Shown here: piece after piece, positions 7,033-52,575 of the stretch
How positions within the stretch are numbered: position 1 is the stretch's first letter
How the letters are laid out: each line of letters begins with the position of its first letter
Source of the DNA: a virus
Strand: one strand, 5' to 3'
IMG/VR virus record: IMGVR_UViG_3300044811_000050
DNA: 64,000 nucleotides
Made by a program: the position numbers and the translations under genes
Notes under the pieces: generated by a model
The model's input: only the letters and a program-made list of their open reading frames with translations
Databases searched by the model: none
Told to the model about the DNA's origin: nothing

Positions 7033-7458
7033 ATGTTCGACTTCGAAACCGATCTCGATGTGGCCCGCTCCCAGGGTCAGCGCACCATCCGTGTCTCCAC
7101 GTCCGCCCCGAGGGTGCGGGAGACCGTGACCGTGACCCGTGACGAGACGTTGGCCACCGAGGTGCGCACCACCGATGTCGGCAAGAACCCTGCTGAATGG
7201 AATTGGGAAGACCTCCGGAACTACGTGGTCCGGCAGATCCAGACATTCCACGGGGAGTTCCCCATCGACCAGATGAAGTTGAGCGGCATTTTCAAGGGCT
7301 TCCTGCGCCGGCACGGCGCCATGGCCGGCCCGATCGCGGTGGCCGCCTTCGACCTGCACCACGGCCGCTGGAAGGGCGCCCCGATCTCAGTCACCCGCTT
7401 CTGCGCGGGCTCGGACCCCTACTTCGCCGAGCCCATCAAGCGCAGCCTGCTCGGTTAG
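7033..7458 (+). CDS. Hypothetical protein (possible replication initiation partner)
   Basis: ORF directly upstream of the DnaC-like gene; typical codon usage. Confidence 0.65.
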   Translation: MFDFETDLDVARSQGQRTIRVSTSAPRVRETVTVTRDETLATEVRTTDVGKNPAEWNWEDLRNYVVRQIQTFHGEFPIDQMKLSGIFKGFLRRHGAMAGPIAVAAFDLHHGRWKGAPISVTRFCAGSDPYFAEPIKRSLLG

Positions 7459-7491
7459 TCGAGCGGGGATCCACTACCCGGGGGCGCCGCC

Positions 7492-8340
7492 ATGCCCCGC
7501 CTACAGGAGATCACCATGCATGAGTTGCCGGCGCTACCCCGCGCCATTCCGATCTTGCCCACGGTCGACAGCGAACGGCTGCGCGACCTGCACCCCGGGC
7601 TGCCGGTCAGCCCCCGCGACTGCGTCACCTGCAAGGGCACCGGACAGTTCCGCTGGTACGACGAGGCTGGCGAGCCGACCGACTGGAAGTGCAACTGCGA
7701 GGAGCAGTTCATCCTGCACCGCTACTTGCTGGCTTCCGGGGTCGCGCTGCACTACCAGCGGCTGCGCTGGGATGACGCGGAAGGTGTCCCGAACGATGTC
7801 TTGGATGTGATCCAGGACTACATCGACAACTGCGATGCCTACGTACAGGCGGGGCTCGGCCTGGTGCTCTGGGGCAGGGTCGGTACCGGCAAGACGCTGC
7901 TGGCCAGCCTGCTGCTGAAGTCGCTGCTGGAGAAGGGCGTCCGGGGCCAGTTCGTCACCTTCCACACCATGCTGGACATGTTCACCGCCGGCTGGGAGCA
8001 GAAGGAAGCCAAGGTCTGGTTCGAGCAGCGGATCACCCACGCCGACGTGCTGGTGCTCGACGACATCGGCCGGGAGCACGAGGGCCGGCGGACCGCCATC
8101 GCCGAGTCGACCTTGGACCACGTGTTGCGCAGCCGGGTGGCCGCCGACAAGCCGACCATCATGACCACCAACCGCAGCCCCGACGAGCTGGGCACGCTGT
8201 ACTCCGGCAACGCGCTGAGCCTGCTCTCCGAGTCGGCCATCGTGAAGGAGTTCCGGGGCGCGGACTTCCGGCCCGAGCACCAGACCCGGAAGATCACCGA
8301 GGCCAAGGCCCGGCTGACCCGACCGATCGTGCTGTCATGA
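7492..8340 (+). CDS. dnaC: DnaC/IstB-like AAA+ helicase loader
   Basis: CxxC..CxC zinc motif, Walker A GRVGTGKT, Walker B VLVLDDIG, TIMTTN. Confidence 0.88.
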   Translation: MPRLQEITMHELPALPRAIPILPTVDSERLRDLHPGLPVSPRDCVTCKGTGQFRWYDEAGEPTDWKCNCEEQFILHRYLLASGVALHYQRLRWDDAEGVPNDVLDVIQDYIDNCDAYVQAGLGLVLWGRVGTGKTLLASLLLKSLLEKGVRGQFVTFHTMLDMFTAGWEQKEAKVWFEQRITHADVLVLDDIGREHEGRRTAIAESTLDHVLRSRVAADKPTIMTTNRSPDELGTLYSGNALSLLSESAIVKEFRGADFRPEHQTRKITEAKARLTRPIVLS

Positions 8341-9659: not shown

Positions 9660-9841
9660 GCGACCACCAGCACCACTACGTGCCCGCCGTGCACACCAAG
9701 GGCAGCGATCTTCGCTGGGAGCGCCAGCTCACCGCTGTCCCGCGCTATGCCTTCCGGTGCGCCTGCGGGCATGTGGTCTGGATGGGCATCGAGCAAGCCT
9801 CCGCCGAGGGTTTGATCTTCGTGGTGGGGAGGCTGGCATGA
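9656..9841 (+). CDS. Small hypothetical protein (CxC/H motif)
   Basis: ATGA overlaps at both ends with dnaB and primase. Confidence 0.6.
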   Translation: MSDHQHHYVPAVHTKGSDLRWERQLTAVPRYAFRCACGHVVWMGIEQASAEGLIFVVGRLA

Positions 9842-10872
9842 GCGACGTCTTCGAGCCGGCGTTCCTGCCTGATCAGGAGAAGCGTGAGCTGTGCGAGGGG
9901 CTGCTGCGCGAGTTCGGGGTGACCCGGTGGCGGTCCACCGAGAAGGGCGAGTTGATCCATTCCTGCCCGATCCCGGGCGGGCACCGCAACGGGGACAAGA
10001 ACCCCTCGGCCAGCCTCAACTACAAGAAGTTGACCTTCAACTGCCTCGGCTGCGGTAGCCGGGGTGGGCTGCTGTTCTTCATCGCCCGGTGCCGGGGAGA
10101 AGACGCTCAGGGCGTCCGTGACTGGCTCGGTGAAGCCACCGGCACCGGCGGCCACACCATGGACTTGGGGCGCCTCCTGGAGGTCCTGGACGCCCTGGAG
10201 GCGCCCTCCGCGCCGCCGCCCCCGATCCCTCGTTTCGCCGCTTCGATGCTGGACCCGTGGACCCGCTGGCCGATCCACCACCCGTACCTGACCGACCCGT
10301 TGCCAGAGGGCCGGGCCTGCCCGCCCGAGACGCTGTCCCGCTTCAAGATCGGCTATGCCGAGGACTACGCGATGGGCGGCGACCGGGGCGCTCAGGAGCG
10401 CATCGTCATCCCGCTGTTCTGGCGCGGTGACCTGGTCGGCTGGCAGGCCCGCCGGCTCAACCCCTACGAGGAGCCCAAGTACAAATTCAGCCCCGACTTC
10501 CCCCGGGACCGGACCCTCTACAACCACCATGGCGAGCGCGAGGCGCTGGTGGTGGAGAGCCCGCTGTCGGTGCTGCGCCATTACCACCACGTGCCGGGGA
10601 TCTTGTCCACCTTCGGCGCCCAGGTGACCGAGGCCCAGATCCGGCTGCTGCACCGCTACGACCGGGTGGTGCTGTGGTTCGACAACGACGACGCCGGCTG
10701 GCAAGCCACCCGCTCGGTGGGCACCGCATTGCTGCCGTTTTGCGACGTGTGGGCGGTGGAGAGCCCTTTCGAGGCCGATCCTGCCGAGCTGGACGACACC
10801 ACGCTAGAAGGGTTGATAGAGGGTGCTGTGCCGTTCGCGGTATGGGCCCCTCCGAAAACTCTTGTTGGTTGA
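9838..10872 (+). CDS. dnaG: DNA primase (zinc finger + TOPRIM)
   Basis: CPIPGGH..NPS..FNCLGC zinc finger, IVIPL..VGWQARR, KY, VVES, WFDNDDAG, DPAE; ATG at 9838. Confidence 0.9.
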   Translation: MSDVFEPAFLPDQEKRELCEGLLREFGVTRWRSTEKGELIHSCPIPGGHRNGDKNPSASLNYKKLTFNCLGCGSRGGLLFFIARCRGEDAQGVRDWLGEATGTGGHTMDLGRLLEVLDALEAPSAPPPPIPRFAASMLDPWTRWPIHHPYLTDPLPEGRACPPETLSRFKIGYAEDYAMGGDRGAQERIVIPLFWRGDLVGWQARRLNPYEEPKYKFSPDFPRDRTLYNHHGEREALVVESPLSVLRHYHHVPGILSTFGAQVTEAQIRLLHRYDRVVLWFDNDDAGWQATRSVGTALLPFCDVWAVESPFEADPAELDDTTLEGLIEGAVPFAVWAPPKTLVG

Positions 10873-35087: not shown

Positions 35088-35161
35088 CGGGACGTAGGCC
35101 AATTTGGCAGGCCACCGGTTTCGGGAACCGGAGACTGGAGGTTCGAGTCCTCCCGCCCCGA
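35088..35161 (+). tRNA. tRNA-Pro(CGG)
   Basis: Cloverleaf; CCGGT-TTCGGGA-ACCGG; TTCGAGT. Confidence 0.9.
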
Positions 35162-35172
35162 CGCTAGAGCAA

Positions 35173-35256
35173 GGCCCTGTGGCGAAATTGGCAGACGCGC
35201 TGGATTCAGGATCCAGTTCCCGGGAGGGAGTGCGGGTTCAACCCCCGCTGGGGTCA
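35173..35256 (+). tRNA. tRNA-Leu(CAG)
   Basis: CTGGA-TTCAGGA-TCCAG; long variable arm. Confidence 0.9.
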
Positions 35257-35274
35257 CGCGAGACAACTGAACAC

Positions 35275-35346
35275 GCCGATTTAGCTCAGCGGAAGAGCGG
35301 CTGCCCTACAAGCAGCGGGCCGGGAGTTCGATCCTCTCAATCGGCA
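35275..35346 (+). tRNA. tRNA-Val(TAC), C at position 33
   Basis: GCTGC-CCTACAA-GCAGC; acceptor GCCGATT/AATCGGC. Confidence 0.85.
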
Positions 35347-35391
35347 CTAGGGTCATACGCGCCCTATGTTTCATGACAACTCCATCCACTT

Positions 35392-35464
35392 GGGGCCTTA
35401 GCTCATCTGGTAGAGCGCCTGTTTTGCAAACAGGAGGCGCCCGGTTCAAGCCCGGGAGGTTCCA
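35392..35464 (+). tRNA. tRNA-Ala(TGC)
   Basis: CCTGT-TTTGCAA-ACAGG; G3-U70 pair. Confidence 0.92.
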
Positions 35465-35563
35465 CGAGGTGCTGCGCTGGGCAGTACATGCCAGCGGCCA
35501 ATACGACCACTCCTCCACGGAGGGTGGCGTCGGCCGTATCCCCCTCGGGGGAACCCAGCCCCC

Positions 35564-35637
35564 GTCCTCGTAGCTCAGACGGATAGAGCGTCAGTTTCCG
35601 AAACTGAAGGCCGCAGGTTCGAGTCCTGCTGAGGGCA
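35564..35637 (+). tRNA. tRNA-Arg(CCG)
   Basis: TCAGT-TTCCGAA-ACTGA. Confidence 0.92.
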
Positions 35638-35706
35638 CAACGGCCGAGGTGGGCGGCCGGTCTCCTCCGTTGGAGAGGACAAGGGTCTCAGACTCCCCAC
35701 CACCAC

Positions 35707-35781
35707 GCCTCCGTAGCTCAGCTTGGTCAGAGCGGCGCACTAGTAATGCGCGGGTCCGGGGTTCGAATCCTCGCGGTGGCT
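35707..35781 (+). tRNA. tRNA-Thr(AGT)
   Basis: GCGCA-CTAGTAA-TGCGC; canonical D and T arms. Confidence 0.88.
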
Positions 35782-35856
35782 CGTTCCGTAGCCGGTGCCC
35801 TGGGCGCCGGCTTCCAGCCATCGGCCCTGATGGTGCGGAGTACCAGGGCCATCCAT

Positions 35857-35930
35857 GGGGTACTAGCTCATCTGGCTAGAGCGTCTCTCTTCCAAAGAGA
35901 AGGTGCGGGGTTCGAGACCCCGGTGCCCCT
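35857..35930 (+). tRNA. tRNA-Gly(TCC)
   Basis: TCTCT-CTTCCAA-AGAGA; U73. Confidence 0.88.
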
Positions 35931-35955
35931 CAAACGCTCGTGCGCACGAGCGTCA

Positions 35956-35999
35956 GCCGGGTCGTGGGTTCAATTCCCTGCTGGTTGCAGCGACTCGGC
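35956..35999 (+). ncRNA. Candidate minimal tRNA-elbow mimic (T-loop then D-like loop)
   Basis: GCCGGGTCG/CGACTCGGC stem enclosing GGG-TTCAATT-CCC and TGC-TGGTT-GCA. Confidence 0.4.
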
Positions 36000-36006
36000 G
36001 CTCCAA

Positions 36007-36080
36007 GACCTCGTAGATCAATCTGGTAGATCACCTGGCTCTCAACCAGGAGGCTGCGGGTTCAAATCCCGTCGGGGTCA
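36007..36080 (+). tRNA. tRNA-Glu(CTC)
   Basis: CCTGG-CTCTCAA-CCAGG. Confidence 0.92.
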
Positions 36081-36102
36081 CATACGACCGCAAGGGGGTG
36101 AT

Positions 36103-36525
36103 ATGCCGTACAAGGATCCAGCTCAACAGCTCGCTTACCAGAACGCTTGGATGCAACGGCGGCGACAGGAATGGATTGAGGAGAACGGTCCATGTGTGGA
36201 CTGTGGCTCCCAGGAAGATCTTACCGTTGATCACAAAGATGCTAGCGAGAAAATCACTCATCGTGTTTGGAGTTGGTCTCAGCCTCGTCGTGATGAAGAG
36301 CTAGCTAAGTGTGTGGTGAGGTGCGAGTCCTGCCACAAGGTGAAGACCCGGTTGAATCGGGAGACTGGAGGCGGGCAGAGTAGCGCCTCGATTGAGGTTG
36401 CTAGGGAGATTCGCCGGCTGTATGCCAGAGGTGGCGTGAGGCAGACGGATCTGGCTCGACAGTTCAGGATTTCTCAGCGAGCCGTTTCGGATATTATTAC
36501 GAATCGTCGCTGGGTAGAATTTTGA
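36103..36525 (+). CDS. HNH homing endonuclease with C-terminal HTH, inside tRNA array
   Basis: CVDCGSQEDLTVDHKD..KCVVRCESCHKVKT; QTDLARQFRISQRAVSDIITNRRW; GGGGTG RBS. Confidence 0.88.
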   Translation: MPYKDPAQQLAYQNAWMQRRRQEWIEENGPCVDCGSQEDLTVDHKDASEKITHRVWSWSQPRRDEELAKCVVRCESCHKVKTRLNRETGGGQSSASIEVAREIRRLYARGGVRQTDLARQFRISQRAVSDIITNRRWVEF

Positions 36526-36532
36526 TACGCAC

Positions 36533-36610
36533 AGCGCAGTTGCTCTGATGGATAGGGGCGGCCTGCCTTTCAAGCAGGATACGACGCGGGTTCGAGTCCC
36601 GTCTGCGCTA
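36533..36610 (+). tRNA. tRNA-Glu(TTC), atypical
   Basis: CCTGC-CTTTCAA-GCAGG; A1-U72; enlarged D and variable regions. Confidence 0.8.
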
Positions 36611-36690
36611 CGAAGGGTCTCGCGCTGGGCGCGACCTGTTCGGCCCGGGGTTCGCGCCTCCACCGAGCTGGCCAGTCGGGACCCTGTTAC

Positions 36691-36764
36691 GGGCATGTAG
36701 CTCAGCTGGTTAGAGCGCGTCGCTGATAACGACGAGGCCGCAGGTTCAAATCCTGCTGTGCCCA
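36691..36764 (+). tRNA. tRNA-Ile(GAT)
   Basis: CGTCG-CTGATAA-CGACG. Confidence 0.93.
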
Positions 36765-36776
36765 CGCAAGGAACAC

Positions 36777-36848
36777 ACCCCGGTAGCTCAGAGGAAGAGC
36801 ATCCGCCTCTTAAGCGGAGGGTCGAGATTTCGAAATTCTCTCGGGGTA
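36777..36848 (+). tRNA. tRNA-Lys(CTT)
   Basis: TCCGC-CTCTTAA-GCGGA; T53-T61 mismatch. Confidence 0.85.
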
Positions 36849-36899
36849 CTAGCGGCACGGTCAGCTGCTTGCTGACGGCAGAGATCGCGCCGCTTTCAC

Positions 36900-36972
36900 G
36901 TCCTGCTAGCTAAATGGATACAGCGCCTGATTACGGATCAGGAGAGTGGGGGTTCGAGTCCCTCGCAGGACA
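36900..36972 (+). tRNA. tRNA-Arg(ACG)
   Basis: CCTGA-TTACGGA-TCAGG. Confidence 0.92.
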
Positions 36973-36976
36973 CTTT

Positions 36977-37051
36977 GCCTCCGTAGCTCAGTCCGCGCAG
37001 AGCCACGTGCTTTTACCACGAGGGTCGGGGGTTCGAATCCCTCCGGGGGCA
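36977..37051 (+). tRNA. tRNA-Lys(TTT), atypical D loop
   Basis: CGTG-CTTTTAC-CACG; D loop lacks GG. Confidence 0.8.
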
Positions 37052-37056
37052 CGCAA

Positions 37057-37140
37057 GACCTGGTGGCGTAATTGGCAGGCGCGCCGGATTCAAGCTCCGG
37101 TGTCCGTAAGGACGTGTGGGTTCAACTCCCACCCGGGTCA
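37057..37140 (+). tRNA. tRNA-Leu(CAA)
   Basis: CCGGA-TTCAAGC-TCCGG; variable arm GTCC-GTAA-GGAC. Confidence 0.9.
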
Positions 37141-37153
37141 CGCAGCACATTAT

Positions 37154-37228
37154 GGGAGCGAGCGCAGGCTGAGTCGACTGGTCTCCAAAGCCGGTTCGTG
37201 CGGGGTTCGAATCCTCCCGCTCCCGCCA
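37154..37228 (+). tRNA. tRNA-Trp(CCA), atypical D arm
   Basis: CTGGT-CTCCAAA-GCCGG; encoded CCA. Confidence 0.8.
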
Positions 37229-37229
37229 T

Positions 37230-37301
37230 TCCGGTGTAGCTCAGCGGCAGAGCCCTCGATTGTTAATCGAGTACGCGTAGGTTCGAATCCTTCCACCGGA
37301 G
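37230..37301 (+). tRNA. tRNA-Asn(GTT)
   Basis: CTCGA-TTGTTAA-TCGAG. Confidence 0.92.
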
Positions 37302-37303
37302 CT

Positions 37304-37380
37304 GTGAGTGAAGCCGAAGGAGACGAGGCGCCGGGTTGTGGACCCGGTCGAAGCGGAGGCAGGTTCCGTCACTCACCCCA
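37304..37380 (+). tRNA. tRNA-His(GTG), non-canonical T loop
   Basis: CCGGG-TTGTGGA-CCCGG; T loop GGCAGGT; C73; encoded CCA; no G-1. Confidence 0.8.
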
Positions 37381-37381
37381 C

Positions 37382-37460
37382 GCCGACGCGCATTGGCGAG
37401 CAAAGCGGACTGTAACTCCGTGGCCTTCGGGCCTTGCAGGTTCGACTCCTGACGGCGGCA
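37382..37460 (+). tRNA. tRNA-Tyr(GTA), atypical D arm
   Basis: GCGGA-CTGTAAC-TCCGT; variable arm GGCC-TTCG-GGCC. Confidence 0.82.
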
Positions 37461-37473
37461 CGCAAGATCACAT

Positions 37474-37549
37474 TAGGCAGCGGGTTGCCGGCATCCCATC
37501 CTGGTTCTGAGCCAGGGCCACGTAGGTTCGAGTCCTACCTGCCTAGCCA
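37474..37549 (+). tRNA. tRNA-Gln(CTG), atypical
   Basis: TCCTGG-TTCTGAG-CCAGGG; TAGGCAG/CTGCCTA; encoded CCA. Confidence 0.82.
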
Positions 37550-37550
37550 A

Positions 37551-37622
37551 TCTCCCGTGATGCAATTGGCAGCAGAGCGGTTTTTGGTACCGAGGATCCT
37601 GGTTCGAGTCCAGGCGGGAGAA
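37551..37622 (+). tRNA. tRNA-Gln(TTG)
   Basis: CGGT-TTTTGGT-ACCG; TCTCCCG/CGGGAGA. Confidence 0.85.
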
Positions 37623-37710
37623 CGAGAGGAGCGGGGTGAGATGAGGGGGGCCCGCCGCGACGACTAGGGCAGACCGCGAGGGCTGTCGAACCGGCTGAGG
37701 TCGTCAACAT

Positions 37711-37748
37711 GGAAGCGTGGCCGAGAGGCCTAAGGCAGCGGATGCTAA
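37711..37748 (+). pseudogene. 5' half of a canonical tRNA-Ser(GCT), truncated at the anticodon loop
   Basis: GGAAGCGTGGCCGAGAGGCCTAAGGCAGCGGATGCTAA with no matching 3' half; HNH starts 10 nt later. Confidence 0.7.
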
Positions 37749-37757
37749 GATTGGCTC

Positions 37758-38222
37758 GTGTCAGCAGGATCAGAGGCAGTAGAGCGGTTCCGAGCCAGAC
37801 GGCGCGCTGAAGCCAAGGCCGTGCTCGGGGGTCGATGTCAGGGTTGCGAGACTCAGGAGGATCTGGAGTTTCATCACGTCGACCCTGCAACGAAGCTGTT
37901 CTCGATTAGTTCGGGCCTCCAGAAGTCCAGGGAGGTCTTCTTCGCGGAGGTGGCGAAGTGCCAACTCCTGTGTACCGACTGCCATGCCGAGGAGACCCGG
38001 AATGGCTACCGCCTGACGTGGGCGGTCGTGGACGAGATCCGATCCCTGGTCGGTCTCACGCAGGTAGAGATTGGTCGCCGGTACTGCCTACACCAGACAA
38101 CGGTGGGTCAGATCCTGAGCGGCCGTAGATGGAATGACCGGCATAGGCGAGCCAGCCCGACTGCTGATCGGGTCATCTGGGAAACTGGATGTGTAGGTTC
38201 AACTCCTACTCATTCCGCGTAG
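37758..38222 (+). CDS. HNH homing endonuclease with C-terminal HTH; ORF reads through tRNA-Ser
   Basis: CQGCETQEDLEFHHVDP..KCQLLCTDCH; TQVEIGRRYCLHQTTVGQILSGRRW. Confidence 0.85.
   Translation: MSAGSEAVERFRARRRAEAKAVLGGRCQGCETQEDLEFHHVDPATKLFSISSGLQKSREVFFAEVAKCQLLCTDCHAEETRNGYRLTWAVVDEIRSLVGLTQVEIGRRYCLHQTTVGQILSGRRWNDRHRRASPTADRVIWETGCVGSTPTHSA
38131..38217 (+). tRNA. tRNA-Ser(GCT), atypical, overlapping HNH ORF
   Basis: GGAATGA/TCATTCC; GCCCGA-CTGCTGA-TCGGGT; variable arm ATCTGG-GAAA-CTGGAT; G73. Confidence 0.82.
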
Positions 38223-38231
38223 TACGACAAT

Positions 38232-38317
38232 GGAAGGTACCGACCAACAGGTGGTCACCCGGCTTCGAAACCCGGTGGCGGGGGCAAACCCCGGGCGTTC
38301 AACTCGTCTACTTTCCG
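38232..38317 (+). tRNA. tRNA-Ser(CGA) with probable 8/4 fold
   Basis: GGAAGGTA/TACTTTCC; GACC/GGTC; TTCGAAA loop; variable arm CGGGG/CCCCG; GGCG-TTCAACT-CGTC. Confidence 0.78.
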
Positions 38318-38320
38318 CAA

Positions 38321-38419
38321 GGACGTCCGAGGGTTCGACACCCTCCACACACGCTGCGCGCGGCGTGTCCACCCCGGGTCCGTACACCCCGGGAGTGAGC
38401 CCCGGGTAGGGGGTCGTCC
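38321..38419 (+). ncRNA. Candidate circularly permuted tRNA-like RNA (YrlA-like topology)
   Basis: GGACG/CGTCC outer stem; T arm first, closed acceptor-like domain, D arm CCCC-GGGTA-GGGG last. Confidence 0.5.
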
Positions 38420-38424
38420 GTCTT

Positions 38425-38495
38425 GTCGCTGTGGCCGAACGGCTAGGCCCACGCCTGCAAAGCGTGTCACCGGGGTTCGACTCCCCGCTGCGACT
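38425..38495 (+). tRNA. tRNA-Cys(GCA)
   Basis: CACGC-CTGCAAA-GCGTG; U73. Confidence 0.9.
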
Positions 38496-38541
38496 CTGGT
38501 CCACCCCGAGAGTCCTTCGGGATGCAGGGTTGGACCTTCAA

Positions 38542-38613
38542 GGTTCCGTAGCTCAGGGGTAGAGCATCCGCTTGTCACGCGGAAGGTCGAGGGTTCGAAA
38601 CCCTTCGGGATCG
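38542..38613 (+). tRNA. tRNA-Asp(GTC)
   Basis: TCCGC-TTGTCAC-GCGGA; G73. Confidence 0.92.
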
Positions 38614-38614
38614 C

Positions 38615-38693
38615 TGCGGCGTAGGGAAGCTCGGTCCATCCCGTCGGCCTCATAAGCCGAAGATCGTCGGTTCGAATCCGACCGCCGCTACCA
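38615..38693 (+). tRNA. tRNA-Met(CAT), initiator-like
   Basis: 1:72 mismatch, GCGGCG acceptor, TCGGC-CTCATAA-GCCGA, encoded CCA. Confidence 0.88.
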
Positions 38694-38694
38694 A

Positions 38695-38770
38695 GGGTCT
38701 GTAGCTCAACTGGCAGAGCACCGGTCTGAAAATCCGGAGGTTGGACGTTCGATTCGTCCCGGTCCCACCA
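38695..38770 (+). tRNA. tRNA-Phe(GAA)
   Basis: CCGGT-CTGAAAA-TCCGG; encoded CCA. Confidence 0.9.
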
Positions 38771-38837
38771 GGAATCCTTGTTGGAGTGCCGGAGGCATGA
38801 GTTAATGCTCTTGGCTTCGACCCCATGGAGGAAACAC

Positions 38838-39674
38838 ATGCCCCGATTCCGTCGGTTTCTGGCGCTCATTGCGGCGCCATTAATAGCCTTGACTTTGACC
38901 GCCCTTGTTGCCCCGGCTGCTTTCGCCGCTGACGAAAAACCCGGCATTGCCTTCGGTGCCCCGTGTGCCCAGGTCCAGATCATCGTCATCCCGGGCAGCC
39001 ACGAGACCAAAGAGTTGACCAAGATGGACAACGCCGCGAAGGGTGTCCTGGTCAACGTGGTCAGCACCCTGGAGGAGAGGTACCAACGCAAGGTCCGGGC
39101 GCACTACATCGGCTACCCGGCGAAGATCGCGTCGATCATCAACATCGGCAGCCAGAAAGATCCGATCGTGACGGTCAGCTGGGACTACACCCAGAGCAGG
39201 GCGAAGGGCTACCAGGCCACCTGGATGACGTTGAAGTACTACCGCAAGCAATGCCCGGCCACGAAGTACATCCTGACCGGGTACTCGCAGGGCGCGCACA
39301 TCGCGGGCGACCTCACCGCGACCATCTCGAAGGAGAACCAGCCGATCCCAGCCAGCTCGCTGATCTCGGTGCGGCTGCTCGCGGACCCCGCGCGCACCGC
39401 GTCCTTCTCCCGGCTGGTCGGGATGGGTACCGGCGGTAACGGTGGCGTGCTCGGGCACCGCACCTTCGGCTCCCTGAACAACCGGGTCACCGAGTACTGC
39501 GTCAAGGGGGACGCGATCTGCGACTTCACCCTGCGCAACCTGGTGAACTCCGCCGCTAACGGGGGTGGCACGCACACCCAGTACGACGGCACCTACGTCC
39601 CGGGCACGCAGACCACGATGACCATGCGGATGAAGGCCGACATCATCGCCGACGTGCTGAACGCTCGGCTCTAG
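38838..39674 (+). CDS. Secreted cutinase-family serine esterase
   Basis: GGAGG RBS, signal peptide AFA-A, CPATKYILTGYSQGA, LLADP, CVKGDAIC, HTQY. Confidence 0.9.
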   Translation: MPRFRRFLALIAAPLIALTLTALVAPAAFAADEKPGIAFGAPCAQVQIIVIPGSHETKELTKMDNAAKGVLVNVVSTLEERYQRKVRAHYIGYPAKIASIINIGSQKDPIVTVSWDYTQSRAKGYQATWMTLKYYRKQCPATKYILTGYSQGAHIAGDLTATISKENQPIPASSLISVRLLADPARTASFSRLVGMGTGGNGGVLGHRTFGSLNNRVTEYCVKGDAICDFTLRNLVNSAANGGGTHTQYDGTYVPGTQTTMTMRMKADIIADVLNARL

Positions 39675-39680
39675 AGTGCC

Positions 39681-39710
39681 GGCGCGAGGGGGTTTCGGCC
39701 TCCTCGCGCC
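39681..39710 (+). terminator. Hairpin after cutinase (terminator or processing stem)
   Basis: GGCGCGAGGGGG-TTTCGG-CCTCCTCGCGCC. Confidence 0.55.
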
Positions 39711-39716
39711 ATGCTC

Positions 39717-39789
39717 GCCCCTGTAGCTCAGCGGACAGAGCTGTCGCCTTCTAAGCGAAAGGTCGCAGGTCCGAATCCTGCCGGGGGCA
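39717..39789 (+). tRNA. tRNA-Arg(TCT)
   Basis: TCGC-CTTCTAA-GCGA; T loop TCCGAAT. Confidence 0.88.
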
Positions 39790-39921
39790 CGGTCTGAATA
39801 GCTCGGGACTGGCGTGCAACCGCCCGGGTGATGGTCAGATGCGGTATCCGTGAGGACCGTGGCTAGGGCCGACCCGATGCACCGGGGCGGCCCTGGTCGG
39901 TATGTGGATGGAGTTGTCGGG

Positions 39922-52020: not shown

Positions 52021-52176
52021 CGAAAATGCAGGGGAAATGCCCCGGAATGCTCGAAGCCTTGATGGCGACGATCAGGACGGGGCATACTCCTGGGTGTGTT
52101 GACAATCCCCGGCATGACGGGGGTCGGAAACGGGTCCGGAAACATACCAGCACCCCAGGGAGAAGGAGACATTCAG

Positions 52177-52575
52177 GTGCCGATAATTCAACGTACCGAG
52201 AAGCTGGATGACATTGAGTACGGCAAGGGCAACGAGGTCCCGGCCACCGAGGAACGCACCCTCGCGGTCGGCGGCCAGCAGTACCGCACCTACCTGACCG
52301 CCGAGAATGCGAAAACCTTCGACGACGACCTGGCCCGGTGGACCGAGCACGCCGAGAAGGTGTCCACCAGCAAGGCCCGCCGGCAGGGTCACAGCCATGG
52401 CGGGGGTGCTGGGACCAGCAACGTGGCGCGCCGGCCGCAGGACAAGTCCGCCGCCATCCGCGCGTGGGCGATGACGCAGGAGTTCAACCCGCCGGTTTCG
52501 GAACGAGGACGCATCCCGGACAAGGTGGTCCAGGCCTACTACAAGACCTTCCCCGAGGAGCGGGACGCGTCTTGA
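52177..52575 (+). CDS. lsr2: Lsr2-like nucleoid-associated protein
   Basis: DDI..AT..VGGQQY..LTAENA dimerisation domain; IRAWA..VSERGRIPDKVVQAY AT-hook domain. Confidence 0.88.
   Translation: MPIIQRTEKLDDIEYGKGNEVPATEERTLAVGGQQYRTYLTAENAKTFDDDLARWTEHAEKVSTSKARRQGHSHGGGAGTSNVARRPQDKSAAIRAWAMTQEFNPPVSERGRIPDKVVQAYYKTFPEERDAS

What the first reader, a model, noticed from the sequence alone, without database searches (positions are those of the whole stretch)
38321..38419. Circularly permuted, anticodon-less tRNA-like RNA between tRNA-Ser and tRNA-Cys
Seen 5' to 3': GGACG, TCC, T arm GAGGG-TTCGACA-CCCTC, then CAC..GTG closing two internal hairpins (ACGCTG/CGGCGT and CCCGGG/CCCGGG), AG linker, D arm CCCC-GGGTA-GGGG, and CGTCC. 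This is a tRNA opened at the anticodon loop and closed at the acceptor end. Known: bacterial YrlA Y RNAs have this T-acceptor-D topology but partner Ro60/Rsr, and no Ro60 gene is in this window. Inference: flanking tRNA processing would release an uncleavable, unchargeable tRNA decoy for tRNA-targeting defence nucleases or other elbow-binding proteins.
Basis: inference. Interest (0 to 1): 0.82.

Follow-up and report, generated by a model that had tools for sequence, protein, structure and literature searches.

The report
Back-to-front tRNA relic in phage tRNA array
Between two tRNA genes of an uncultured high-GC actinobacterial phage lies a 99-base stretch made of the back half and then the front half of a tRNA. 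It is really tRNA-derived, but it is much less tRNA-like than known phage Y-RNA-type mimics, and nothing shows that it acts as a decoy.

Summary

- **T arm:** it is the only canonical T arm in the window outside a tRNA gene.
- **Closing stem:** the 5-bp stem is robust.
- **In-silico rejoining:** rejoined in normal order, the two halves pass ARAGORN at its default threshold. Only 0.3-2.5% of control 5' halves pass.
- **Front half:** its first ten bases match the array's tRNA-Trp 9/10.

So a circularly permuted, tRNA-derived module is real. The proposed fold and function are not supported.

- **Fold:** the 3-bp "acceptor" has pairing probability 0 and costs 4 kcal/mol. The "D arm" has a 5-nt loop and is the third copy of a local CCCCGGG repeat.
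- **YrlA test:** Rfam YrlA does not match at all, although it detects real modules in Gordonia phage Phendrix and Streptomyces phage Alone3.
- **Ro60:** none was found in the window's + strand ORFs or in five complete relatives.
- **Homologs:** none could be reached, because the closest relatives lie in collections whose DNA I could not fetch.
- **Neighbouring spacers:** they are as structured or more so.

Most likely this is the junction of a former tandem tRNA pair, now a self-folding spacer released during tRNA processing.

This scan had already noted permuted tRNA mimics in other phages, for example Felix O1 types.

The parts
38232..38317 (+). Upstream neighbour: deviant tRNA-Ser(CGA). It has no encoded CCA; the discriminator is G38317.
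   Evidence: The tRNA-Sec model gives 28.5 bits. ARAGORN calls it only at -ps80 and -ps90.
38318..38320 (+). 5' flank CAA, between the tRNA-Ser discriminator and the closing stem.
   Evidence: Sequence.
38321..38325 (+). Closing stem, 5' strand GGACG. It corresponds to the 3' strand of an anticodon stem.
   Evidence: Pairs with 38415-38419 at probability 0.93-1.0.
38326..38328 (+). Three-nt variable-loop equivalent, TCC.
   Evidence: Sequence. It is shorter than the 4-5 nt seen in the Phendrix and Alone3 modules.
38329..38345 (+). Canonical T arm GAGGG-TTCGACA-CCCTC, with G53-C61, T54, T55, C56, R57 and A58.
   Evidence: It is the only such motif in the window outside a tRNA. Pair probability is 0.99-1.0.
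38346..38353 (+). Former acceptor 3' strand CACACAC plus discriminator-like G. Bases 38349-52 are now part of hairpin 2.
   Evidence: Pairs 5/7 with GGGAGTG at 38391-97, by reading of the sequence. Enforcing this acceptor costs about 17 kcal/mol.
38349..38368 (+). Hairpin 2: ACACGCTG-CGCG-CGGCGTGT, 8 bp.
   Evidence: MFE and pair probability 0.86-1.0.
38370..38397 (+). Hairpin 3: CACCCCGGG ... CCCGGG-A-GTG, 9 bp with one bulge. It absorbs the former acceptor 5' strand.
   Evidence: Pair probability 0.78-0.99, and CAC 38370-72 pairs with GTG 38395-97 at 0.97-0.99.
38391..38399 (+). Former acceptor 5' strand GGGAGTG plus the A8-G9 linker.
   Evidence: With C38400 it is 9/10 identical to the tRNA-Trp head at 37154-37163, p 0.0012.
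38400..38412 (+). D-like hairpin CCCC-GGGTA-GGGG. It is also the third CCCCGGG copy; the other copies start at 38372 and 38387.
   Evidence: Pair probability is only 0.19-0.51. Three CCCCGGG copies fall within 35 nt, against 19 + strand copies in 64 kb.
38415..38419 (+). Closing stem, 3' strand CGTCC. It corresponds to the 5' strand of an anticodon stem.
38420..38424 (+). 3' flank GTCTT, which serves as the leader of tRNA-Cys.
   Evidence: Sequence.
38425..38496 (+). Downstream neighbour: tRNA-Cys(GCA).
   Evidence: ARAGORN and Rfam, 51.7 bits.

Best explanation
**What it is.** The element is a tRNA-derived, circularly permuted module.
- First comes the 3' half of a tRNA: an anticodon-stem strand, a short variable loop, a canonical T arm and an acceptor 3' strand.
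- Then come 37 nt.
- Then comes a tRNA 5' half: a Trp-like acceptor 5' strand, an A8-G9 linker, a short D-like hairpin and an anticodon-stem strand.

**How it arose (inferred).** This is the arrangement found at the junction of two tandem copies of one tRNA gene. Most likely it arose that way, with both outer halves lost at the anticodon loop.

**What it does now.**
- Predicted by thermodynamic folding: the RNA forms a closed five-way junction in which the old acceptor strands have been taken up into two new stable hairpins.
- Inferred: it is co-transcribed with the array. It is cut out by RNase P at the 5' end of tRNA-Cys and by 3' processing of the CCA-less tRNA-Ser(CGA).
- Inferred: it behaves like the other long spacers of this array, as a self-contained folded domain that keeps neighbouring GC-rich pre-tRNAs from mispairing.
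- The intact T hairpin could still be bound or modified by T-loop enzymes, but no decoy role is indicated.
For: - The T arm is unique outside tRNAs.
- The rejoined halves pass ARAGORN at default threshold, against 0.3-2.5% of control 5' halves.
- The 5' half is 9/10 identical to the tRNA-Trp head, in the correct register.
- The closing stem is perfect over 5 bp, with probability >=0.93.
- The MFE is a five-way junction at -51.5 kcal/mol. Enforcing the full acceptor gives -34.6.
- Other spacers are equally or more structured: z is -2.9, -2.4, -2.7, -3.1 and -2.9, against -1.97 for this one. Most are closed 1-2 nt after the upstream tRNA.
- Chen et al. 2014 state that dimeric tRNAs look like YrlA. 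Here the Met-Phe junction scores 28 bits on the YrlA model.
Against: - All five stems are perfect or nearly so, and the T loop keeps every invariant base. That is not what long neutral decay predicts.
- The two flanks sum to 8 nt, about one anticodon loop. Two independent deletions would give that only by luck.
- A second closed T-then-GG-loop mini element lies at 35956-35999. This hints that the T/D pairing itself may be selected.
- No tandem parent copy or missing half was found in the window.
- There is no transcript, processing or conservation data.
Confidence: 0.5

Rival explanations
1. It is a functional, Ro60-independent tRNA-elbow mimic and a divergent variant of the YrlA-type modules of actinophage tRNA arrays. 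After excision by tRNA processing, the T loop and the GG-containing D-like loop form an elbow. That elbow engages an elbow- or T-loop-binding protein: RNase P or RNase Z, a modification enzyme, or a tRNA-targeting defence nuclease.
For: - The outer layout is the same as in real modules in Phendrix (two copies) and Alone3.
- Phendrix has two such modules but no TROVE gene in its genome, so Ro-less modules exist.
- The rejoined element passes ARAGORN at default threshold.
- A second T-then-GG-loop element lies at 35956-35999 in the same array.
- All stems are intact.
Against: - Rfam YrlA gives no hit at E<=10. Real actinophage modules score 34-37 bits and plain tRNA junctions 16-28 bits.
- There is no single acceptor-like hairpin abutting the T stem. 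The 3-bp version has probability 0.
- The D loop has 5 nt, with A at position 8 and no A14. Its stem is one copy of a CCCCGGG repeat with probability about 0.5.
- It fails ARAGORN at -ps110, where all three controls pass.
- No paralog or homolog was found.
Confidence: 0.25
2. It is a working circularly permuted tRNA gene. RNase Z after tRNA-Ser and RNase P before tRNA-Cys leave 5'-P-CAA... and ...GUCUU-3'OH held together by the 5-bp stem. An RNA ligase seals them into an anticodon loop GUCUUCAA, with a CUU anticodon. Acceptor-end processing then removes the 37-nt insert.
For: - The flanks give a loop with U at the position of U33 and A at the position of A37. ARAGORN calls the natural join a tRNA with a 4-base anticodon at -ps90.
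- Ends produced by RNase P and RNase Z are ligatable. This rests on established enzymology and is an inference here.
Against: - The acceptor pairs only 5/7 and costs about 17 kcal/mol against the competing hairpins.
- The loop would be 8 nt, not 7.
- The D loop is tiny.
- The array already has tRNA-Lys(CTT).
- No RNA ligase, RtcB or PNK domain was found in the window's ORFs.
- To my knowledge, no bacterial or phage precedent exists.
Confidence: 0.03
3. It is a DNA-level element. The three CCCCGGG copies, each containing the palindrome CCCGGG, are spaced 15 and 13 bp apart. They would form a protein-binding or nuclease target site, with the RNA fold incidental.
For: There are three copies within 35 bp and a fourth at 38289, against 19 + strand copies in 64 kb.
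Against: - This does not explain the canonical T arm, the Trp-like head or the closing stem.
- TRF sees no tandem repeat.
- The motif is neither enriched nor avoided in the window overall.
Confidence: 0.05
4. It is chance hairpins in GC-rich DNA.
For: The fold z-score is only -1.7, and 8 of 200 shuffles fold as well.
Against: The uniqueness of the T arm, the ARAGORN rejoining control and the Trp-head match are each individually unlikely by chance.
Confidence: 0.02

Closest known systems
YrlA-type bacterial and phage Y RNAs (Rfam RF02553; Chen et al. 2014, PMC4201824). Examples located here: Streptomyces phage Alone3 (OR725492 10582-10696, next to a Ro-like gene) and Gordonia phage Phendrix (MN096369 81015-81123 and 81170-81275)
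   Same: - The order is T arm first and D arm last, closed by a basal stem where the anticodon arm would be.
- It lies inside an actinophage tRNA array.
- It is tRNA-derived.
- Rejoined in normal order, it is recognised as a cloverleaf.
   Different: - It has no covariance-model match.
- It has no long Ro60-binding basal helix or GNCGAA motif.
- No TROVE gene was found nearby.
- Two long hairpins plus linkers replace the single 6-8 bp closed acceptor stem that abuts the T stem.
- The linker is AG, not UA.
- The D loop is 5 nt, against 7-9 nt.
Junction of two adjacent tRNA genes (dimeric tRNA), listed by Chen et al. 2014 as a false positive for YrlA
   Same: A T arm and acceptor 3' strand, then a spacer, then an acceptor 5' strand and D arm. 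The halves are complementary, as if they came from one tRNA species.
   Different: The outer halves of both tRNAs are missing. The remaining anticodon-stem strands pair to close the unit. The old acceptor strands have been re-used in new hairpins.
Circularly permuted tRNA genes of the red alga Cyanidioschyzon merolae (Soma et al. 2007; from my own knowledge, not read here)
   Same: The 3' half is encoded upstream of the 5' half, with an intervening sequence at the acceptor end.
   Different: Those genes have intact acceptor stems. They mature through a bulge-helix-bulge motif and the eukaryal/archaeal splicing machinery, which bacteria lack. Here the acceptor pairs 5/7 and maturation is unsupported.
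Stable by-product RNAs of tRNA operons: T4 species 1 and 2 RNAs in the T4 tRNA cluster, and the E. coli 3'ETS-leuZ and internal spacers that act as sRNA sponges (from my own knowledge, not read here)
   Same: It is a non-tRNA RNA encoded within a tRNA transcription unit and liberated by tRNA processing enzymes.
   Different: Those RNAs were shown to accumulate, and the E. coli ones to act by base pairing. Nothing is known here about accumulation or targets.

Membership tests
YrlA (RF02553) | Match to the family covariance model, at least at the level of real actinophage members | tested here: not met
   There is no hit on 38321-38419 at E<=10 in a 1.3-kb search. Positive controls score 37.1 bits (Phendrix) and 33.8 bits (Alone3).
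YrlA (RF02553) | Basal helix carrying the Ro60-binding module (GNCGAAN0-1G on the 5' strand; Chen 2014) | tested here: not met
   The basal stem is only GGACG/CGTCC. tRNA-Ser ends 3 nt upstream and tRNA-Cys starts 5 nt downstream, and no GNCGAA is adjacent.
YrlA (RF02553) | Encoded next to a Ro60/TROVE gene | tested here: not met
   No TROVE was found in about 58 + strand ORFs of the window or in five complete ~150-kb relatives. The other ~93 kb of this genome could not be searched.
YrlA (RF02553) | Canonical T arm | tested here: met
   GAGGG-TTCGACA-CCCTC, with probability about 1.0.
YrlA (RF02553) | One acceptor-like stem-loop directly continuing the T stem, followed by a 2-nt linker and the D arm | tested here: not met
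   CAC/GTG has pair probability 0.00, and enforcing it costs +4.0 kcal/mol. Two hairpins with linkers lie between the T and D arms.
YrlA (RF02553) | D arm able to make tRNA tertiary contacts (U8-A14, G18G19 with the T loop, A21) | tested here: inconclusive
   GG and a terminal A are present. But the loop is 5 nt, position 8 is A, there is no A14, and stem probability is about 0.5. The three control modules have UA linkers and 7-8 nt D loops, and Pumpernickel's has 9 nt.
tRNA (RF00005), linear | Cloverleaf in normal 5'-to-3' order with an anticodon loop | tested here: not met
   Neither Rfam tRNA nor ARAGORN calls the element on the + strand, even at -ps80. The only call near it is a - strand tRNA-Arg at 38280-38369 that spans the tRNA-Ser/element border and appears only at -ps80.
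tRNA-derived, circularly permuted module | The halves rejoined at the anticodon side form an acceptable cloverleaf more often than controls do | tested here: met
   ARAGORN at -ps100 calls the rejoined sequence a tRNA. 2.5% of shuffled and 0.3% of genomic 5' halves pass. It fails at -ps110, where Phendrix and Alone3 pass.
Permuted tRNA genes (C. merolae type) | Intact 7-bp acceptor stem and a processing motif that allows circularisation | tested here: not met
   The acceptor pairs 5/7, with G.A and A.A mismatches, and is about 17 kcal/mol worse than the MFE. A bulge-helix-bulge motif and its enzymes are not expected in bacteria and were not tested.

The most novel reading that the evidence does not exclude
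The element is a working circularly permuted tRNA gene in a bacterial virus.
- Cleavage by RNase Z after tRNA-Ser(CGA) and by RNase P before tRNA-Cys leaves 5'-P and 3'-OH ends.
- The 5-bp stem holds those ends side by side.
- A ligase seals them into an anticodon loop GUCUUCAA, with a CUU anticodon.
- Acceptor-end processing then removes the 37-nt insert, giving a Lys-type tRNA or a four-base-decoding tRNA.

My evidence makes this unlikely but does not exclude it.
Probability: 0.03. Interest if true: 0.9.

Novelty: new variant of a known kind. Interest (0 to 1): 0.35.

Why it matters
**If merely a relic.** It is a clean snapshot of how YrlA-type tRNA mimics can arise. A junction between tandem tRNA genes becomes closed off at the anticodon side, and here the old acceptor strands have already been re-wired into new hairpins.

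**If functional.** It would extend Ro60-independent tRNA-elbow mimics to a new actinophage lineage and would give a candidate anti-defence or processing-guide RNA.

**The more testable lead.** This came up on the way. The cultured Gordonia phage Phendrix carries two strong YrlA-like modules but no TROVE gene.

Tried and rejected
**Searches for homologs or close relatives that found none**
- blastn against INPHARED, with 701 nt and with 109 nt. Only tRNA or T-arm matches came back.
- Exact and gapped DNA patterns in IMG/VR, followed by a covariance-model rescoring of the 80 loci found.
- Protein-anchored searches with the neighbouring cutinase, the DnaB helicase and the HNH protein in IMG/VR and JGI metagenomes.
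- A DnaB alignment search reached only relatives at 34-43% identity, plus one 69% relative on an 8-kb contig that does not reach the array. Eight of the ten relatives checked for tRNAs carry 1-6 tRNA matches and two carry none. They have no TROVE and no YrlA.
- A single-sequence model R1 found no paralog in the window. In 20 related records its best hits were tRNA-Trp T arms plus trailers.

**Tools or data that were unavailable**
- No whole genome is held for this window.
- Metagenome records could not be searched beyond the fetched flanks.

**Ideas rejected**
- A tRNA on the minus strand. The T loop would read TGTCGAA and the D loop would lack GG, and the only minus-strand ARAGORN call is a -ps80 tRNA-Arg at 38280-38369, gone at -ps90.
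- A tmRNA, standard or permuted.
- A terminator or promoter.
- Descent of the T arm specifically from tRNA-Asp. The 15/17 identity is within the range seen between unrelated tRNAs.
- The tRNA-Ser 5' half at 37711-37757 as the missing partner. By reading of the sequence, its acceptor and anticodon-stem strands are not complementary to this element.

**Abandoned**
- A custom core model built from Phendrix, Alone3 and Pumpernickel. MAFFT put the closing and D stems out of register.

**Literature**
- Two searches gave no description of this kind of element in phage arrays beyond YrlA.

Full report
**What is there**

The window is part of a 157-kb contig of an uncultured high-GC phage of a mycolic-acid actinobacterium.
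- It encodes Pol III alpha, RecA, DnaB, a LysB-type cutinase and Lsr2.
- It has no close cultured relative.

ARAGORN finds 23 tRNAs at 35088-39790. More deviant ones appear at lower thresholds, including tRNA-Ser(CGA) at 38232-38317.

The finding occupies the whole gap between that tRNA and tRNA-Cys at 38425. It starts 3 nt after the Ser discriminator and ends 5 nt before Cys.

**Is it more than chance?**

Yes, on three independent counts.
1. **T arm.** A perfect 5-bp stem with a TTCRANN loop occurs 23 times in 64 kb. All are on the + strand, and 22 are the T arms of tRNAs. The 23rd is 38329-38345. With a relaxed 3-bp rule there are 3 sites in about 118 kb of non-array strand, against 2 in roughly 1.2 kb of array spacer. 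The second spacer site is at 35966.
2. **Rejoining.** I joined the 3' part (38391-38419), a 7-nt loop and the 5' part (38321-38353) in normal tRNA order. ARAGORN calls the result a tRNA at its default threshold. Only 25 of 1000 composition-matched shuffles of the 24-nt 5' half pass, and only 3 of 1000 random genomic 24-mers.
3. **Trp-like head.** GGGAGTGAGC (38391-38400) stands exactly where an acceptor 5' strand, positions 8-9 and the first D-stem base should be. It is 9/10 identical to the first ten bases of this array's tRNA-Trp, GGGAGCGAGC. Both share an A8-G9 linker, where nearly all other tRNAs of the array have T at position 8. Only 0.12% of window 10-mers match any tRNA head that well.

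**The fold**

- The MFE (-51.5 kcal/mol) is a five-way junction. It comprises the closing stem, the T hairpin, an 8-bp hairpin, a 9-bp hairpin and a D-like hairpin.
The same GTG pairs with CAC at 38370-72 at probability 0.97-0.99.
Forcing the full ancestral acceptor costs about 17 kcal/mol. The old acceptor strands are therefore now parts of two new hairpins.
- The D-like hairpin has probability only about 0.5 and a 5-nt loop. Its stem is the third of three CCCCGGG copies, at 38372, 38387 and 38400. That is a significant local repeat, given 19 + strand copies in 64 kb.
- The fold z-score is modest: -1.7 for the element and -1.97 with flanks.
- Five other spacers of the array score better, from -2.4 to -3.1. 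Most share the same plan: tRNA, 1-2 nt, a closed domain, about 5 nt, then the next tRNA.

**Comparison with YrlA**

Rfam's YrlA model gives no hit on the element even at E<=10. It does score the junctions of ordinary neighbouring tRNAs:
- Met-Phe, 28.3 bits.
- Cys-Asp, 16.2 bits.

This is the artefact that Chen et al. 2014 warn about.

As positive controls I fetched tRNA arrays of three cultured actinophages.
- The model finds an unannotated module in Streptomyces phage Alone3 at 33.8 bits, about 450 nt upstream of an annotated Ro-like gene.
- It finds two modules in Gordonia phage Phendrix, at 37.1 and 21 bits.
- The three control modules, Phendrix 1 and 2 and Alone3, share one plan: a closing stem, a 4-5 nt variable loop, a canonical T arm, one closed 7-8 bp acceptor stem directly abutting the T stem, a UA linker and a D arm with a 7-8 nt GG loop. 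Pumpernickel's module is the same apart from a 6-bp acceptor stem and a 9-nt D loop.
- Rejoined in normal order, the three control modules pass ARAGORN even at -ps110. The element fails there.

The element thus has the outer plan of these modules but fails each core criterion.

**Ro60**

No TROVE, RNA ligase or other tRNA-enzyme domain was found in about 58 + strand ORFs of the window. Five complete ~150-kb relatives also lack TROVE and YrlA. The rest of this genome could not be searched.

**Homologs**

None could be obtained.
- DnaB relatives at 63-80% identity exist in Logan and JGI data.
- The searchable collections hold only relatives at 34-43% identity, apart from one 69% relative on an 8-kb contig that does not reach the array. 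Eight of the ten checked carry 1-6 tRNA matches and two carry none.
- A single-sequence covariance model found no paralog in the window, nothing credible in 20 related records and nothing in 80 pattern-derived IMG/VR loci.

Covariation, the decisive test, is therefore untested.

**Best explanation (confidence about 0.5)**

This is the junction of a former tandem pair of one tRNA gene. Both outer halves were lost at the anticodon loop.

Today it is a closed, self-folding spacer. Flanking tRNA processing would release it as a by-product of about 100 nt. This step is inferred: neither neighbour encodes CCA, so endonucleolytic 3' processing is expected.

Points that do not fit this reading:
- All stems and the T loop are intact.
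- The flanks sum to 8 nt, about one anticodon loop.
- A second closed element with a T-like loop and then a GG loop lies at 35956-35999.

**Rivals**

| Reading | Confidence |
|---|---|
| DNA-level site formed by the CCCGGG repeats | 0.05 |
| Working permuted tRNA gene sealed by a ligase into a loop GUCUUCAA | 0.03 |
| Chance hairpins | 0.02 |

**Novelty**

YrlA-type tRNA mimics in bacteria and phages are published (Chen 2014). This scan has repeatedly noted permuted mimics in other phages. This element is at most a divergent variant or a proto-form of that kind, in an uncultured phage and without comparative support.

Noticed in passing
L174 (Gordonia phage Phendrix MN096369, reverse complement of 76996-89205): 7946-8017 and 8098-8168, with gene 144 at 7084-7818: Two unannotated, back-to-back YrlA-like permuted tRNA modules (RF02553 at 21 and 37 bits) lie just downstream of a DUF7873 protein (Pfam E 2e-101). 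The whole 121-kb genome has no TROVE match and no DUF2828 match. These are Ro-less YrlA-like RNAs in a cultured phage.
   Followed up: partly
L176 (Streptomyces phage Alone3 OR725492): 9859-9973, with a further orphan T arm at 9745: An unannotated YrlA-like RNA lies in the 490-nt gap of the tRNA array, about 450 nt upstream of the annotated Ro-like RNA-binding protein (gene 37). A second T-arm-bearing element lies about 150 nt before it.
   Followed up: partly
window 35956-35999: A closed 9-10 bp stem encloses GGG-TTCAATT-CCC (a T-loop-like hairpin) directly followed by TGC-TGGTT-GCA (a GG loop). The spacer 35932-36006 has z -2.7. It is one of only two T-loop hairpins found in spacers.
   Followed up: partly
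window 35466-35563, 35783-35856, 36850-36899, 38497-38541: The long inter-tRNA spacers are significantly structured, with z from -2.4 to -3.1. Most are closed by a stem that starts 1-2 nt after the upstream tRNA and leaves about 5 nt before the next tRNA.
   Followed up: partly
window 38232-38317: tRNA-Ser(CGA) matches only the tRNA-Sec model, at 28.5 bits, and is called by ARAGORN only at lowered thresholds. In that alignment the anticodon loop has 8 nt (CTTCGAAA).
   Followed up: no
window 37154-37229: tRNA-Trp(CCA) is missed by ARAGORN at default settings. It has an A8-G9 linker and a collapsed D arm, and its first ten bases recur 9/10 at 38391-38400.
   Followed up: partly
L086 1259-1346 (IMG/VR relative G001, contig IMGVR_UViG_3300041409_000610): An odd 88-nt tRNA-like unit has a perfect 7-bp acceptor (GGTGGTG/CACCACC) and a normal T arm. 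A second T-loop-like hairpin (GCGG-TTCAATC-CCGT) sits where the D arm should be. ARAGORN does not call it.
   Followed up: no
window 38743-38759 compared with 38321-38325 and 38415-38419: The T stem of tRNA-Phe (GGACG/CGTCC) has the same sequence as the element's closing stem. This is probably coincidence.
   Followed up: no
window 52096-52575: A phage-encoded Lsr2-like nucleoid protein has both the dimerisation and the DNA-binding domains. This fits an actinobacterial host.
   Followed up: no
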